The position numbers are program-made. A stretch of DNA of 64,000 nucleotides from Perna viridis (taxonomy: Eukaryota), in contig CM074513.1 of NCBI GenBank assembly GCA_037379345.1, positions 33,786,885 through 33,850,884 on the forward strand. Reading direction: 5' to 3'. Position 1 is the first letter of the stretch. Every line of letters begins with the position of its first letter. Positions 39,201 to 45,200 of this stretch are shown piece after piece.

Positions 39201-42200
39201 TTTTTTATGCCCTTGTGACAAACAGTCAGAAGGGCATATTAATCTACCCCTGTCCATCTGTCCATTTTACTCAGAAATATATGGATCATGGCTTGCCAGC
39301 CATCTCCTTGTACAGTTTTTGAACTACATCTAAAATATTTTACAAGATATTTCTACACATGATGAAGGCGTGCTGGATCAAAGGATTTTGATTTTCATCA
39401 GAAAAAGGGCTATATGACTAGTCCGGTTATCTCCTGTAGTCTTTGAACTACATCTAAAATATTTATTGCAAGATGTTTCTATACATAATGAATGTGTGCA
39501 AGGTCATAGGATATCGATGTTTGCGGAATATTACAGAACTAGGTGATAGTTGGACTTTGGAATATTACGGAACTGGGTGATAGTTGGACTTCGGAATATT
39601 ATGGATCTGATGATATTTGGACTTTGTAGTTTTTGTCAGAAATATACCCCAAGCAAGAAAGTTAGGGATTTATTTTTGGAGATATTAACATTTTTTATGC
39701 ATCCATCAGTCTGTCCATCAGTCCTCTTTTTCTCATCGCAAGTATTTTTGCATTGCTTAGCCTAACATACCAAATATTTACTGCATCAACCAACTATACA
39801 TAACCTTTCTGAATCTGCAAACCATGTCTTTATACAAAAATAAACATGTTCTTAATTTGGCTAATCTAGCGAGCAGGGGCATCATTAGTGTCTTACAGAC
39901 ACATTTGATTTACTAAAAAAAAAATCACTACTAACAAATGATACAGGGGCTCCTGTGGCAAACAGGGCTTCTAGTTTAATGAAAGAGTCAAGTGTTGCTT
40001 TTCTGAATATATTTATAGTTGGTGTGGTTAGGAATTATGAGCTTTTTTAGATACAAATTCTTCCTTGAATACTTTAATTTTCTTCAGTCACTTTATCAGT
40101 CTTAACTCATAAAAGATTGGTGTGCAGATGCCACAGATAAAACACTGCAGTAGCTTTGTTTGATTAAATGAGTGTTCAGTACTCTGAAAGGTTCTTCAAA
40201 ATATTGCAAAAGTAATTTGGTTTCAAGTATTTGATCAGTTTGTGTGATGCTAAAAACATTTTTTTAAACTTTGTCTCAATATTTGCTGTAGATTGTTAAA
40301 GGGTGTTCTGCCATATTATTTGACAGAAACTAACCAATAAATGGCTTCAAAGAATAATAGCAACTATCAAAGACAACCAAAGCTTTAATTTATTTCAATA
40401 TACAATGCATTTCTTTCTTTAATGTGGTTTCAGTTGCATGTTACAGTCACAAAACTTCATGTTAAAAATACATTCTAATTTAATAACTTTACTTTTACTC
40501 CAGTCATTTACAAAGCTAGATAAATAATTGATATTCCTGGTTTTTCTTGATTATTTGAAATTTATGGCAGTCGTTGACAAGAATATATTTGAATAACAGA
40601 TACATGACTCAATCAATACAGATTTTATGTATTTAATTCTGAAAAGTGAAAGAAAAAAATAATGTGAAGCTTGATCAATAAAATGTCAGCCTTTCCACCA
40701 GGGCTTGTCAGGATGTGAAGGGTAATTTTGTAAAGATCATTAGTGGAAATGAGTTGAAGAGAAGATCATTTGTAGGAATCAAATGTCACTGATATAATTG
40801 TCATATTGTGTCATTAAAGCTTAGTGTCCTTGTTACCAGTGTCTAGAAAGTCTTTCTATCATTATACATCTTTTAAATGAAAAATCACTTAAGAAAAAAA
40901 AATAATAGACATTGTCGTAAAAATGGAAAATCTGAAAAACTATATTATCATATGACTTTAGTGCATGGCAGACACAAGTTATGAGACTGACAAATGGTTA
41001 AGATGACTTCCTACAAGTAGTGTTTTCTTGCAGCGAGGATGTCACTACAAAGTCATTAATGACTATTCTTTATTTGAAACAATTCAATCTCTCTGTGAAA
41101 GCCTTAGTTAGGAATCAGTCAGTATTATAGAATTTGATTTCTTTTTTTAGGGATACTTCTAAAAATATTTTTCTAAGACATTTACTCAAATTACAGATGA
41201 TGATGGTCAAAGAGGTTTTAGAAATAATTATAATATGAAATCAGGACAATAGGATGGTGGTAAACTCAGACTACACTTCCAATAATTGTTGCTGGAACAC
41301 AAATTTATAAAAGTAACTATAGATATCTATTGATTACTGGTAACCATGATTTGTCAATAATGCAATGTTTTAATATCAAGCTGAGAATTTCACAATTTAA
41401 AAAAATGTCAAAACTGTGTTGATGTTTTTTTTTTTTTTTTTTTTAAAAAGGCATATTGTTAGATATATCAATTCAATGATAATTTGAGAAATACAGCTAA
41501 GATCATTTGTTGTATCAATAACAGAAGTTGTGTAATAACAATTTGATCAGAGGCTTTTTATTCAATTTATACAAAAATGTATATGCTTTGGTTTAGATTT
41601 CATTTAACTATAGATTTATATTTGATTAAATTTTATGCCCTTGGGTCTAATTGTAGGAAGAAATATTCAATGAGTAAAAATATGACGGAATCTTTGATCA
41701 TGATTTTTCAACTCTGCTTACTTACATCATTTGGCACTTTTCTCAATGATAAATATATTTGTGCTTTTTAAGAAATGATTGACATTATACAGAAGAATAT
41801 TAATCTGATTTTCATTTTGGATTCATAAAATTTGGGTTAAACATGATATTTTTAAGTAAGCTTAAAATTGAAGTTGTAATGGAAGAATAAAAACAACTTT
41901 TACTTTTTTTCCTTTCATTTTGAAGCATTCAACAACAACAACAGCACAGTGAGATAAATGTTAGTCTATACTGTTTGTTGTAACAAAAATACAACTGTTG
42001 TTGTATGATAAAAAATACATGATAAACAAGTGAGAGTACATTAGTTACAGTGATACTGGTTGGATGTTCTATGTCATACACATTTAGAAAAACTATACTG
42101 TTGGCAAGGACCAGTGGAAACATTAAAACTGTGTAAAGAAACATTAGTTTGATGATTAATTTTGTTAATTGGATCTCTTCTCGAAGACGTCGGTTCAAAA

Positions 42201-45200
42201 TTAATGCTGTTTCTGTTCTATACTTAGCATCGATTGGCCGAGATGTATTAACACTGGTACATAATCCTATTATAGATAGAAACATAAGTAAAATGGGTAA
42301 TCCTATAAAAATACAAGTTAAGTACCAGAAATAGACAACATCATACTCAGCATGCTTGCCTGTCTCCTGTATTACTTGGTAAATGTCAGGATTTTGATCA
42401 GATTGATCCCAGTAATTATTGGTTTTTGTTCCATAATCTTCGGATGTGTGATTATTGTAATTAGTGATATCGTATTGCCAAAGACGTGGGACGGTGCTAA
42501 TCAATCCTACAATTATCACCAGACCCGAAATGATCCAGGATTGTGTTGATGATACTTGATTATAAGTCTGGTACAATGTTACAGTTAGTGTTCGCTCTAA
42601 AGCAGCAGAAAGAATAATCCAGATTATGATGTAGCGAGTCCACTCATGACAAAGAACAGAATAATATGTCATCTCTGAAATTATCTTTTCTATATAGTGT
42701 GGAAGCATTACAAATATAGATGTTATCACATGAATTAGTGTTGTTATTGACAGAACAAAGAAATATGTATCAATAGACAATCTGATTTGCTTAGCCAGCA
42801 CAACTACATTGATGACCTGTCCAAGTAAACTAAGCACCAGAATGACTGGTACCAGAACATAACAGATGTAGTTAGTGACTTCTATCCAACCCCGTGTTTC
42901 CATTGCAGTTGTGTTAAGGCACAGTATTGACAGACAGTTACGTGGGGGTAAAAGAAGCAATGGTTCCTGTGTATACTTATAGTTCCACATGTTCAAAGTC
43001 TTATATTTGATGAAAGTGAATTTTCACTGAATCAAATTCCTTGCACATGAAACTAAAACATTGATCCATTTTTCGGTATTGTGATGGAAGAAAAAACTGC
43101 CCAAAGAAATTCAGAATTTTTGTTGTAACATTTTAGATTTATTTTATCTAAATGTCCTAACAGCTTTTCTGCTGTCACTTGATGTATTTTGTTTCTGCAG
43201 TGAGAGTTTTTAGTCAATAAATCACCTGCGCTATATAGCATTGTTTGTCGTCACATGGTCATGCATTTTGCAGTAGTATGTTTATATTCTCCTGTGGTTT
43301 GGTGAAGCATGACACTAATCCATGTAGTTACAGTAGTGAACACAGAGTTTCTATTCAATTCCTATCTTAATGTCTCACAATATTTCCATATTTGGTTTTT
43401 TTTTCCTGTTGTAATTGAAAACTGTGTTGTTCCCAAGTTTCCTGATTATCATTATTGAACCCTCATATGGTAAAAATTCCCAATAGTTTTGACATATTCA
43501 TGTTACGTCTCAGCAAAGTAATTAAGTGAACATTTTCTGTATCCTTTGATGACATTGTAAACCTTTTGCTCTTTTTTTCCAGTTTTTTATCAAATAAATT
43601 CTGCATTGGTTTACGTTCTGTAATTGTAAATAACATCAACAGATAGATGAATAGATGAGACTTTTCTCTACAATCACTGTAATTTAATCCTGGGTTTCTT
43701 TTATTTCCAATTGTATCATGAGGAAAGCCAATATTTTTTCTCTGTTAATATGCTTAGAATAAGACAGCTTATAGTAGTAACAGTCATTTCACATAATTTC
43801 TAGGGTATTGAATTATTTCTCTGCCAATAAAACATTTTAACATAAATAAAGACCATATTTGACATTTGCTAACCTGGTAGTGGACAATATTCAAACCTTG
43901 ATAGGTTGGTGGAATATTGATGTTTGAGTGAAAATGAAACATTGCATGGTCAGACATTTTTCTTTGGAACCATTTTTCTATCACTTATCAGTTCTTATTA
44001 TTCCCTTGTGGAACGACTTTAAATGAAGTATTTAATTGTATGCTATCTGTCAGTCATTGAAATTAGATTCCAATGCAATTTTTTCCCAGATATTTATAGA
44101 AAGGAAATCAGCAGACCTTTCATTTATTTTGTCTTGTTCAGATTATTTTTCAATACAAGTACTTGTAAAATACATTTAAAGGTGTATCCTTGGGAGGATA
44201 GAGCAAGACTTTGTTCTTAATGTGAAATGTGATGTTATGGTGAGATGTTCAGAACTGATATTATTCTGTTGATAGGTGACATCATAGTTGATTTAAGGCA
44301 TAATAAGCCAATATTTTTTCAGTAACTTATTACTAGTTATTTGAAATTGAAAACATAAAATTTATTTATCAAGTTAGTCTTGTCACTGCTTATTAAGATT
44401 TGATAACTCTTTTATACTGTAAAATTTTCATTATGGGTAGGTAAAGTGAAGGAACCAGAAAAATATGCATGCTAATACATCAAGATCTGAATTGGACTTT
44501 TATATGAAATGAAATTTTAGAAACAGACACGTTGGATTGTTTTACTTTTAACAACTTTAGTTATTGAAGTTCAATAAGTCTTTGGTTAGATAAAGCTTCT
44601 TCAGTGGCTCAGTGAATAAGATGTGAAAGTGTCGAGAAAGATTTGTCATTTTAATGATAAATGGATATAAATGCTTTCATATGGCAAAGATTTATTGTTT
44701 AAGAAGGAGAAAAAGAAATACTCTTCTCTCATTTGTTTCTATAAGTGTTTGAATAATTGCATTAGCAGTCAAAACTTAAAGAGATAGAGATTGATTATAC
44801 TTCAGTGACTGAAATGCAAGGAAACCAATATAAGCTACTTAATGTATAGTGCAGTAAATTGTAAGATAATGTATAAAATGATCATTTAATACTCAATGAT
44901 TTAGTAGTGTGTCTTTTACATTCATTTATAAATTAGAGAGTGTATAGTTTTTTTTCTTGTCATTTCATCTCTTTGTAGAAAATAAAAGGCAAGTTAATAA
45001 AGCTATTTATTGTGTTTTGGAATTAATTGTCTGTTTTTATATGTCCCTATTACAAAATGTTATGTGATATCATGAGTATGGAAAGTGAAGATAAAACTCC
45101 TGTTGAATAATTTAAAAAAAAAAGAGAGAGATATGTTCAGTTTATATCAAATTGAGCCCTGAAAATAAATTTTGTAACATCATTGGGGACATTGCATAAT

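What the first reader, a model, noticed from the sequence alone, without database searches (positions are those of the whole stretch)
41929..42990. Intact orphan GPCR nested antisense inside a motile-cilia dynein assembly gene
Seen: an uninterrupted 7TM ORF on the opposite strand in the largest DNAAF9 intron (37822-47796). The surrounding ~7 kb has few recognisable transposons compared with other introns, which suggests constraint from UTRs or regulatory DNA. Inference: a host/nested gene pair that may be co-regulated or mutually exclusive in ciliated cells, for example a chemo- or peptide sensor of gill or larval ciliary bands.
Basis: partly seen in the sequence, partly recalled or inferred. 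Interest (0 to 1): 0.65.

Follow-up and report, generated by a model that had tools for sequence, protein, structure and literature searches.

The report
Conserved orphan receptor gene inside DNAAF9 intron
An intact gene for an unusual rhodopsin-type membrane receptor of unknown ligand sits backwards inside an intron of a cilia-motor assembly gene in a mussel; the arrangement is old and shared with other mussels, but it is an ordinary kind of gene nesting with no sign yet that the two genes work together.

Summary
Window 41929-42990 (-) is a 353-codon ORF, the longest in the window, with seven hydrophobic segments. It lies in a 9,975-nt intron (37822-47796) of a + strand DNAAF9 gene, mapped exon by exon.

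The protein belongs to a small, low-copy orthogroup of divergent class A receptors found in several bivalve orders. Identity is 69-70% to Mytilus and about 36% to scallop and freshwater mussels. This clade has QQxY where NPxxY normally sits and also lacks D2.50, W6.48 and the TM3-ECL2 cysteines. It keeps E/R of DRY, P5.50, P6.50, Y7.53 and a cysteine-rich end.

In Mytilus edulis the orthologue's accession falls between two DNAAF9 half-models that break at this same point. In the unionid Potamilus the two genes are two locus tags apart. The linkage is therefore ancient.

Co-regulation, ciliary function and transcription could not be tested. An X-box scan found nothing, and the "few transposons" remark was not borne out. 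Nested intronless GPCR genes are common, so this is a new member of a known kind and of modest interest.

The parts
41929..42990 (-). Complete single-exon coding sequence (353 aa plus stop) of a divergent class A (rhodopsin-type) 7TM receptor
   Evidence: ORF. Seven hydrophobic segments and chance estimate. Orthologues of the same length with the same start and end. Family profile matches solved class A receptors over residues 52-352 (NMUR1, E 2.6e-12).
43024..43026 (-). In-frame TGA stop 33 nt upstream of the start codon; it closes the ORF at its 5' side
   Evidence: The 443-aa database entry P0011 is the same DNA read with TGA as W, not a longer protein.
41557..41562 (-). AATAAA, candidate polyadenylation signal 366 nt after the stop. 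A second candidate, ATTAAA, lies at 41369-41374, 554 nt after the stop.
   Evidence: Pattern scan. Use of either signal is inferred, not shown.
41425..41444 (-). Run of 20 A on the receptor's strand, 484 nt after the stop
   Evidence: It is either simple low-complexity DNA or a worn retroposition tail; unresolved.
43232..43237 (-). TATATA, 247 nt upstream of the ATG, a candidate core promoter element. A TATAAA lies at 43281-43286, 296 nt upstream.
   Evidence: Pattern scan and sequence. Pattern match only, in AT-rich DNA.
37822..47796 (+). Host intron of DNAAF9 (9,975 nt) that contains the receptor gene. The receptor's stop lies 4.1 kb from the intron's 5' splice site and its ATG 4.8 kb from the 3' splice site.
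   Evidence: GT and AG borders with frame continuity. Collinear tblastn hits on both sides.
37740..37821 (+). DNAAF9 coding exon ending at about residue 353
   Evidence: Pfam DAAF9 profile positions 110-128, E 8.8e-4. tblastn 76.7% identity to M. edulis residues 326-355.
47797..47833 (+). 37-nt DNAAF9 microexon (GKSGMPSEDEEA, plus a split codon at each end)
   Evidence: tblastn 11 of 15 identical to M. edulis residues 351-365; alone E 0.33, but collinear. Splice sites and frame.
11948..63277 (+). Mapped part of the host gene DNAAF9 (Met1 to residue 703 of about 1,165); the gene continues beyond the window
   Evidence: 690 of 703 residues are covered and 539 are identical (78.1%) to M. edulis DNAAF9. 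DAAF9_N hit at 24113-24289, E 2.5e-11, and DAAF9 hit at 53609-53803, E 5.3e-7.
39198..39984 (.). Dispersed repeat inside the host intron, with copies at 49149-49710, 54893-55215 and 56296-56743
   Evidence: Self-BLAST. A 34-nt x3 tandem array lies at 39525-39626.

Best explanation
This is an ordinary host/nested gene pair, not a single functional unit.

What it is:
- The nested gene is an intact, independently encoded receptor gene with a single coding exon. Its protein is a divergent class A (rhodopsin-type) seven-helix receptor.
- The receptor belongs to a small, low-copy orthogroup kept in mussels, scallops, pearl oysters and freshwater mussels.
- It lies antisense in the roughly 10-kb DNAAF9 intron between the exon ending near codon 353 and a 37-nt microexon.
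- The same placement is inferred in Mytilus edulis and close linkage in the unionid Potamilus, so the neighbourhood is ancient.

Most likely mechanism (inferred):
- The gene is transcribed from its own promoter in the intron, on the side towards 47.8 kb, and polyadenylated a few hundred bases after the stop.
- The product sits in the plasma membrane with a short glycosylated N-terminus outside.
- It binds an unknown, probably endogenous and possibly peptide, ligand at its faster-evolving outer face.
- It signals through its strongly conserved inner face (E/R of TM3, ICL2, ICL3, helix 8) and is anchored by a terminal cysteine cluster.
- Its activation switches are non-canonical: QQxY for NPxxY, T for D2.50, M for W6.48 and no TM3-ECL2 disulfide.
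- The nesting itself is most likely a passively retained old arrangement.

Shown: the ORF, the fold class, the orthology pattern, the intron position and the conserved linkage. Inferred: transcription, topology details, ligand class, coupling and the absence of a functional tie to DNAAF9.
For: ORF and chance:
- ORF and improbability of chance.

Family and fold:
- Exhaustive HMMER search of 1.84 billion representatives: only 37 proteins at E<=1e-3 and 7 at E<=1e-30.
- The word-indexed search found 10 clusters. The named ones are one per species: Mytilus galloprovincialis and M. edulis, Sinanodonta, Potamilus, Pinctada and Argopecten.
- The family profile hits solved class A receptors, best NMUR1 at E 2.6e-12 over residues 52-352, then substance P, CCK, somatostatin and bombesin receptors and rhodopsin.
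- 8 of 22 family members reach Pfam 7tm_1 and 6 of 22 reach Srw at E<=0.01.
- The Atlas model of the M. edulis orthologue (pTM 0.72) has class A structural neighbours at TM 0.64-0.78.
- In the tree, the QQxY clade (15 rows) splits into a unionid group and a 100/100 pteriomorph group, with mytilids together at 100/100.

Constraint:
- 69-70% identity to Mytilus with 3 gap positions, beside 78.1% for the host's exons.
- Divergence is uneven. TM, intracellular loops and helix 8 are 79.5% identical, against 54.1% for the N-terminus and extracellular loops. ICL2 is 12/13, TM3 17/19 and helix 8 to the C-terminus 22/24.

Motifs:
- QQxY is present in 14 of 44 homologues scanned, and these are exactly the close clade.
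- A TM7 NPxxY occurs in 1 of 44; E-R-[T/S/A] stands in place of DRY. Register comes from the alignment to NMUR1.

Nesting elsewhere:
- M. edulis accessions CAG2257215 (DNAAF9 residues 366-1165), CAG2257216 (receptor orthologue) and CAG2257217 (DNAAF9 residues 1-352) are consecutive on one 3.26-Mb contig.
- In Potamilus, DNAAF9 is CHS0354_004450 / KAK3595301 and the receptor is CHS0354_004452 / KAK3595303, on one 2.72-Mb scaffold.
- Both genes are on the same chromosome-sized record in M. edulis RefSeq, M. galloprovincialis, Argopecten irradians and Pinctada imbricata.
Against: - No evidence of transcription was obtainable.
- The query alone gets no Pfam hit, even at E<=1, and only weak single-sequence PDB hits (best E 7e-5).
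- Several hallmark class A switches are missing, so G-protein coupling may be absent or unusual.
- My own structure prediction could not be run. Fold evidence therefore rests on profile matches and on the Atlas model of an orthologue.
- Nesting in other species is read from accession and locus-tag order, not from coordinates. Strand, and in Potamilus true nesting, are unknown.
- In Pinctada the two accessions are 599 apart (KAK3094829 and KAK3095428). If accession order follows position, the genes are not adjacent there.
- A conserved arrangement could also reflect selection for a shared regulatory domain, which my data cannot exclude.
Confidence: 0.78

Rival explanations
1. Functionally coupled host/nested pair. 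The receptor and DNAAF9 share a regulatory domain and are either co-expressed in multiciliated gill or larval cells or mutually exclusive through transcriptional interference. The receptor would act as a sensor that tunes ciliary activity.
For: The linkage has persisted across deep bivalve splits, from mytilids to a unionid, and such persistence is what selection on a shared domain would produce. DNAAF9/Shulin is a packaging chaperone of outer dynein arms in multiciliated cells (PMC12700831, abstract read), so the host is expected to be active in ciliated tissue.
Against: - No expression data.
- X-box scan: 3 matches against 2.71 expected, none near either 5' end.
- In mammals, most host/nested pairs show no positive or negative expression relation (Spearman rho peaking between 0 and 0.5), independent of orientation (PMC11694760, passages read).
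- In Pinctada the accessions are 599 apart.
Confidence: 0.1
2. Environmental chemoreceptor of the kind that forms lineage-specific expansions in molluscs.
For: The nearest Atlas clusters by sequence features are mollusc class A and Srw-like clusters, one automatically named "Chemosensory receptor A" (score 0.96). 6 of 22 family members match Pfam Srw. The extracellular parts evolve faster than the rest.
Against: - Very few relatives: 7 at E<=1e-30 among 1.84 billion representatives.
- One sequence per named species, and a tree that follows the named taxa.
- No paralogue or tandem copy in the window.
- Lophotrochozoan chemosensory expansions are described as lacking inter-order orthologues and as keeping DRY and NPxxY (PMC11886862).
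Confidence: 0.08
3. A seven-helix protein that no longer signals through G proteins. It could be an atypical or decoy receptor, a constitutive scaffold, or a protein with another membrane role.
For: Loss of D2.50, W6.48, N7.49-P7.50, the TM3-ECL2 cysteines and apparently Y5.58. There is no C-terminal tail beyond the cysteine cluster.
Against: R3.50 with E3.49, P5.50, P6.50 and Y7.53 are kept, and the intracellular face is the best conserved part (ICL2 12/13, helix 8 to the C-terminus 22/24 against Mytilus). This is the pattern expected if a transducer still docks there.
Confidence: 0.12
4. A silent relic: a retroposed copy or chance ORF that is not a working gene.
For: The coding region is intronless, and an A20 run lies 484 nt after the stop, downstream of an AATAAA.
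Against: Chance is excluded (3e-13). Full-length orthologues with the same start and end persist in several bivalve orders. Divergence is region-specific. A second allele in the database differs at 1 of 353 residues and has no disruption.
Confidence: 0.02

Closest known systems
Mytilus orthologues: XP_076100887.1 (LOC143070515, M. galloprovincialis), XP_071171411.1 and CAG2257216.1 / A0A8S3VPF1 (M. edulis)
   Same: 352 aa against 353 aa, 69-70% identical over the full length with 3 gap positions. They share the N-terminal LLPPRxC motif, ERT, QQxY and the terminal cysteine cluster. In M. edulis the accession sits between the two halves of DNAAF9.
   Different: A different species. They are annotated only as "uncharacterized protein" or [quoted passage not shown]. 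No paper mentions them (0 papers).
Solved class A peptide receptors (neuromedin-U receptor 1, substance P, cholecystokinin A, somatostatin and bombesin receptors)
   Same: Seven-helix class A architecture. The family profile aligns over TM1 to helix 8 (NMUR1 E 2.6e-12, residues 52-352). E/DRY arginine, P5.50, P6.50, Y7.53 and helix 8 are in register.
   Different: Only remote similarity. The query alone reaches E 7e-5 at best. NPxxY, D2.50, W6.48 and the TM3-ECL2 disulfide are absent. No ligand can be inferred.
Intronless GPCR genes nested in introns of unrelated host genes, e.g. mouse Gpr21 in the Rabgap1 intron between exons 13 and 14
   Same: A small receptor gene lies wholly inside one intron of a large housekeeping-type gene (PMC4813635, passages read). 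Nesting is frequent: more than a tenth of mammalian genes are in such pairs, and 25-31% of pairs with orthologues keep the configuration between human and mouse (PMC11694760).
   Different: Here the nested gene is antisense to the host, whereas the figure legend read places Gpr21 on the positive strand of the Rabgap1 locus. The pair is in bivalves, and the linkage appears to span much deeper divergences.
Lineage-specific class A GPCR expansions of Lophotrochozoa (candidate chemoreceptors)
   Same: Mollusc class A receptors with variable extracellular parts. Atlas neighbours of the orthologue are such clusters.
   Different: Those expansions lack inter-order orthologues and keep DRY and NPxxY (PMC11886862). 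This receptor is low-copy, orthologous across orders and lacks NPxxY.

Membership tests
Class A (rhodopsin-type) GPCR, Pfam 7tm_1 | Seven transmembrane helices with the N-terminus outside | tested here: met
   Seven hydrophobic windows. NxS/T sites at N26 (N-terminus) and N180 (ECL2) fit the topology. The Atlas model of the orthologue superposes on class A models at TM 0.64-0.78.
Class A (rhodopsin-type) GPCR, Pfam 7tm_1 | Significant match to the family profile | tested here: inconclusive
   The query alone matches 0 Pfam families at E<=1. 8 of 22 homologues match PF00001, best E 1.6e-14. A profile of the family matches 79 solved class A sequences at E<=0.01.
Class A (rhodopsin-type) GPCR, Pfam 7tm_1 | E/DRY at the end of TM3 | tested here: inconclusive
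   ERT in the query. E132 and R133 are nearly invariant in the family, and the third position is T, S, A or C. The arginine is kept; the tyrosine is not.
Class A (rhodopsin-type) GPCR, Pfam 7tm_1 | NPxxY in TM7 | tested here: not met
   QQQLY stands in register with NPVLY of NMUR1. QQxY is present in all 14 close members scanned. A TM7 NPxxY occurs in 1 of 44 homologues. Only Y7.53 is kept.
Class A (rhodopsin-type) GPCR, Pfam 7tm_1 | D2.50, CWxP (W6.48) and the TM3-ECL2 disulfide | tested here: not met
   By the NMUR1 register, D2.50 corresponds to T and W6.48 to M, while P6.50 is kept. The TM3 cysteine of the query is not conserved even in Mytilus, and ECL2 has no cysteine.
Class A (rhodopsin-type) GPCR, Pfam 7tm_1 | Couples to heterotrimeric G proteins on ligand binding | not testable with these tools
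   Needs a cell assay.
Bivalve QQxY receptor orthogroup (defined here) | N-terminal (E)PLLLLPPRxC motif, TM7 QQxY, C-terminal NKQYRLT(F/L)xSxCCCCC, and placement in the clade | tested here: met
   All three motifs are present. The query's allele groups with Mytilus and P0003 at 100/100, inside the 15-row clade.
Host/nested gene pair | The nested gene lies wholly within one intron of the host, with no exon overlap | tested here: met
   The coding sequence 41929-42990 lies inside intron 37822-47796, 4.1 and 4.8 kb from the flanking exons. The UTR extents are unknown.
Host/nested gene pair | Both genes intact and both transcribed | not testable with these tools
   Both reading frames are intact as far as the window goes. 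No transcript data were available.
Chemosensory lineage-specific expansion | Many recent paralogues, often in tandem, and no orthologues between orders | tested here: not met
   No paralogue in the window. 7 relatives at E<=1e-30 in 1.84 billion representatives. Orthologues occur across orders.
Retroposed gene copy | Intronless copy with a poly(A) relic and target-site duplications, plus an intron-bearing parent elsewhere | tested here: inconclusive
   The coding sequence is intronless, and an A20 run lies 484 nt after the stop. Target-site duplications were not sought and no parent gene can be looked for. The age of the arrangement makes a preserved tail unlikely.

The most novel reading that the evidence does not exclude
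The DNAAF9-receptor nesting predates the split of pteriomorph and palaeoheterodont bivalves and is kept by selection as one regulatory unit. On this reading, a receptor with a non-canonical QQxY activation switch is made in, or excluded from, multiciliated gill and velum cells by antisense transcription through the intron next to a 37-nt microexon. This would link an external or hormonal signal to the supply of the outer-dynein-arm packaging chaperone.
Probability: 0.07. Interest if true: 0.65.

Novelty: new member of a known kind. Interest (0 to 1): 0.3.

Why it matters
As it stands, the finding is mainly useful for annotation.
- It identifies a conserved, low-copy orphan receptor family in bivalves whose activation motifs depart from the class A rule (QQxY for NPxxY, no D2.50).
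- The nested gene appears to break automatic DNAAF9 gene models in Mytilus into two halves at this intron.

The long persistence of the linkage makes the pair a reasonable test case for asking whether old nested arrangements are kept by selection or by inertia. The receptor is also a candidate for deorphanisation in animals whose feeding and larval swimming depend on cilia. None of this is surprising to a specialist. Intronless GPCR genes inside introns are common, and no functional tie to cilia has been shown.

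Tried and rejected
- Pfam on the query alone: 0 families at E<=1.
- Atlas look-up of the window's own protein and of P0048: neither sequence is held. The stored M. edulis orthologue was used instead.
- Structure prediction of the window's protein from alignment A1: the tool was not accepting jobs (and again after the stated wait). No model and no fold search were made.
- Rfam at gathering thresholds and tRNA scans of the whole window: 0 and 0.
- Bacterial-type promoter and terminator scan around the gene: 22 sites against 21.5 expected, which is meaningless for a eukaryote.
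- RFX X-box scan: 3 against 2.71 expected.
- Pfam on ORFs within the host intron (43466-43744 and 46044-46295, - strand): no family.
- Longer 443-aa form (P0011): rejected as the same DNA read with TGA as W.
- dN/dS: not possible, because no orthologue nucleotide sequences were reachable.
- Direct synteny: not possible, because the only genome collection on hand holds bacteria and archaea, so it was not scanned.
- Literature: no paper holds the orthologues' accessions (0 papers). Searches for DNAAF9 with "nested gene", for GPCR/nested/intron/host gene/intronless (3 papers held the terms, the 2 listed unrelated) and for C20orf194/intron/GPCR (2 unrelated papers) found no description of this pair.
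- The supplementary receptor lists of PMC11886862 could hold the Mytilus orthologue, but supplements were closed.
- The joined spliced DNAAF9 model was not searched; exons were handled one by one.

Full report
**1. The observation**

The window has 30-35% G+C throughout and contains no N. An ATG-to-stop ORF of 353 aa lies at 41929..42990 on the - strand. The open frame runs 364 codons from stop to stop (41932..43023), with a TGA 33 nt before the ATG.

It is the longest open frame in the window; the next are 283 and 253 codons. With a stop probability of 0.076 per codon, 364 open codons have a chance of 3e-13. Hydropathy gives seven segments: 42-60, 78-96, 121-139, 153-171, 226-244, 278-296 and 311-329. 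NxS/T sites at N26 and N180 lie on the predicted outer side.

**2. The host gene**

I did not search a joined spliced model. Exons were translated and searched one at a time:
- 24113-24289 hits Pfam DAAF9_N (E 2.5e-11).
- 53609-53803 (E 5.3e-7), 37740-37820 (E 8.8e-4) and 36438-36605 (E 0.039) hit the DAAF9 domain at rising profile positions.

One exon, used as a query for longer proteins, returned the named Mytilus edulis DNAAF9-like protein P0020 (1,165 aa). tblastn of P0020 on the window gives collinear + strand hits from Met1 at 11948 to residue 703 at 63277. Of those 703 residues, 690 are covered and 539 are identical, which is 78.1%.

The exon 37740-37821 ends before GTAAGA. A 37-nt microexon, 47797-47833, follows TTTCAG and precedes GTAAC. 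The next exon starts at 50985, and the frame is continuous. The receptor ORF therefore lies antisense in a 9,975-nt intron, 4.1 kb from its 5' end and 4.8 kb from its 3' end. This is the longest of the 22 intervals mapped in the window, but the gene continues beyond the window.

**3. The "few transposons" remark**

Self-BLAST of the window marks 8% of this intron as repeated (39198-39984 and 45540-45651). The other intervals range from 0 to 79%, and several other spans are equally clean. Recognisable mobile DNA elsewhere includes a reverse-transcriptase fragment at 28456-28866 (-) (RVT_1, E 2e-11) and a 45-nt x30 tandem array at 57490-58838. Without a repeat library the remark can be neither upheld nor dismissed. 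It gives no ground for inferring constraint.

**4. What the protein is**

Alone, the query gets no Pfam family even at E<=1, and only weak hits to the cholecystokinin A receptor among solved structures (E 7e-5). Its relatives settle the question.

The word-indexed search found 10 clusters:
- a 352/353-identical allele;
- Mytilus galloprovincialis and M. edulis proteins of 352 aa at 69-70% identity;
- an unnamed 333-aa cluster at 62%;
- proteins from Sinanodonta, Potamilus, Pinctada and Argopecten at 34-36%.

The exhaustive HMMER search of 1.84 billion representatives found only 37 proteins at E<=1e-3 and 7 at E<=1e-30, so this is a small family.

A profile of 22 members matches solved class A receptors from TM1 to helix 8. 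The best is neuromedin-U receptor 1 (E 2.6e-12, residues 52-352), followed by other peptide receptors and rhodopsin. 8 of the 22 reach Pfam 7tm_1 and 6 reach Srw. The Atlas's own model of the M. edulis orthologue (pTM 0.72, pLDDT 0.67) superposes on class A models at TM 0.64-0.78. I could not fold the window's own protein.

**5. Departures from the class A rule**

In the register of the NMUR1 alignment and alignment A1:
- N1.50 is Q.
- D2.50 is T.
- E/DRY is ERT, with E132 and R133 nearly invariant in the family.
- W6.48 is M, with P6.50 kept.
- NPxxY is QQQLY, with Y7.53 kept.
- The TM3 cysteine is not conserved and ECL2 has no cysteine.
- The protein ends in a cysteine cluster right after helix 8.

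QQxY is present in 14 of 44 homologues scanned. These 14 are exactly the close clade. Only 1 of the 44 has a TM7 NPxxY. An N-terminal (E)PLLLLPPRxC motif is shared down to the unionids.

**6. Orthology and constraint**

In a maximum-likelihood tree of 26 rows, the QQxY clade (15 rows) has a well-supported unionid group (Sinanodonta, Potamilus and P0046; 100/100). It also has a 100/100 pteriomorph group that holds the mytilids (100/100), Argopecten and Pinctada. There is one sequence per named species.

Against Mytilus, the helices, inner loops and helix 8 are 79.5% identical, and the N-terminus and outer loops 54.1%. ICL2 is 12/13, TM3 17/19 and helix 8 to the C-terminus 22/24. Such uneven divergence, full-length conservation with 3 gap positions, and a rate close to the host's own (70% against 78%) indicate purifying selection. 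A formal dN/dS could not be computed because no orthologue nucleotides were reachable.

**7. Is the nesting shared?**

No animal genome could be read, so I used accession and locus-tag order.

*M. edulis.* In one annotation, three consecutive accessions lie on one 3.26-Mb contig:
- CAG2257215 is DNAAF9 residues 366-1165.
- CAG2257216 is the receptor orthologue.
- CAG2257217 is DNAAF9 residues 1-352.

The break falls at the intron that holds the receptor in the window, give or take the microexon. The M. galloprovincialis RefSeq models of DNAAF9 are likewise incomplete here, one covering residues 1-193 and one starting at residue 366.

*Potamilus streckersoni.* DNAAF9 is CHS0354_004450 / KAK3595301 and the receptor is CHS0354_004452 / KAK3595303, on one 2.72-Mb scaffold. 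They are adjacent or nested; I cannot tell which.

*Other species.* Both genes lie on the same chromosome-sized record in M. edulis RefSeq, M. galloprovincialis, Argopecten irradians and Pinctada imbricata. In Pinctada the accessions are 599 apart, which argues against adjacency there if accession order follows position.

From general knowledge (recalled, not from a call), mytilids and unionids separated in the early Palaeozoic, so the linkage is very old.

**8. How it most likely works**

- Shown: an intact receptor gene, the fold class, the conserved inner face and the conserved neighbourhood.
- Inferred, transcription: the gene has its own promoter in the intron. TATA-like hexamers lie 247 and 296 nt upstream of the ATG. 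AATAAA and ATTAAA lie 366 and 554 nt after the stop.
- Inferred, protein: a surface receptor for an unknown, probably endogenous ligand. It signals through the conserved inner face and uses a non-canonical switch.
- An A20 run 484 nt after the stop could be a retroposition scar, but given the age of the arrangement it is more likely simple sequence.

CpG is depleted across the whole window (observed/expected 0.26) and in both flanks of the receptor (0.14-0.17), so there is no CpG-rich promoter island.

**9.

DNAAF9/Shulin packages outer dynein arms during multiciliogenesis (PMC12700831, abstract). Nothing ties the receptor to this role:
- The X-box scan gave 3 matches against 2.71 expected. 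The only exact one (24230-24243) is inside a coding exon.
- In mammals, most host/nested pairs show no expression relation, whatever the orientation (PMC11694760, passages).

A chemosensory role also fits poorly, because lophotrochozoan chemosensory expansions lack inter-order orthologues and keep NPxxY (PMC11886862, passages).

**10. Comparison and verdict**

Receptor genes inside introns of unrelated genes are familiar, for example mouse Gpr21 within Rabgap1 (PMC4813635, passages). The orthologues are already in public databases as uncharacterised proteins. No paper found or 50 describes the pair.

This is a new member of a known kind. Two features are of modest interest: an unusual motif set and a very old linkage. 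The supplementary tables of the papers cited were closed and may bear on how the Mytilus orthologue has been classed.

Noticed in passing
window 1764-5740 (+): The 3' part of another + strand gene lies upstream of DNAAF9. It shows several coding-looking exons (1764-2522, 2669-2875, 4104-4358) and a last exon encoding a C-terminal RING finger (5459-5740; zf-C3HC4_3, E 9.2e-16). The nearest solved RINGs are those of MDM2, BIRC2/3, MUL1 and MGRN1. The gene was not identified further.
   Followed up: partly
window 26764-30565 (-), inside DNAAF9 intron 24906-32673: A string of - strand ORFs, one of which carries a reverse-transcriptase domain (28456-28866; RVT_1, E 2e-11). It is probably a decayed LINE-type element.
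   Followed up: partly
window 16797-17827 (-): Three overlapping - strand ORFs of 238, 109 and 107 aa in intron 12023-19262. The two scanned (238 and 107 aa) match no Pfam family. This may be an unclassified mobile element.
   Followed up: partly
window 57490-58838: A tandem array of a 45-nt unit, 30 copies at 92% match, inside a DNAAF9 intron. It produces long repetitive ORFs on both strands, up to 283 aa.
   Followed up: partly
window 8001-10000, 25400-25930, 31600-32540: A dispersed repeat family that carries similar short ORFs on the - strand. 91% of 8001-10000 is repeated within the window. The 120-aa ORF scanned has no Pfam family.
   Followed up: partly
window 49215-49718, related to 39198-39984, 54893-55215 and 56296-56743: A second repeat family, which includes a 172-nt unit in 2.9 tandem copies. 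One copy lies in the receptor's host intron.
   Followed up: partly
window 24230-24243: A perfect palindromic RFX X-box-like site (GTTGCCATGGTTAC / GTAACCATGGCAAC) lies inside a DNAAF9 coding exon, where it encodes part of FVAMVT, which is conserved in Mytilus. The window-wide count is at chance level.
   Followed up: partly
window 60001-62000 (+): Strong purine bias on the + strand (GC skew 0.219, AT skew 0.161) with lysine- and glutamate-rich ORFs (61006-61324) inside a DNAAF9 intron. No significant Pfam family was found.
   Followed up: no
whole window: CpG is strongly depleted (observed/expected 0.26) while GpC is not (0.93). The receptor ORF keeps more CpG (0.44) than its flanks (0.14-0.17). 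This would fit germline methylation of a transcribed gene body, but that reading rests on recalled knowledge of mollusc methylation.
   Followed up: no
database entries P0011, P0024, P0030, P0027, P0035: P0011 (443 aa) is the receptor's DNA read with TGA as tryptophan, so it is an artefact. Mytilus DNAAF9 is split or truncated in two annotations at or before the intron that hosts the receptor, with pieces covering residues 1-352, 366-1165 and 1-193. The nested gene may be what misleads the gene callers.
   Followed up: yes
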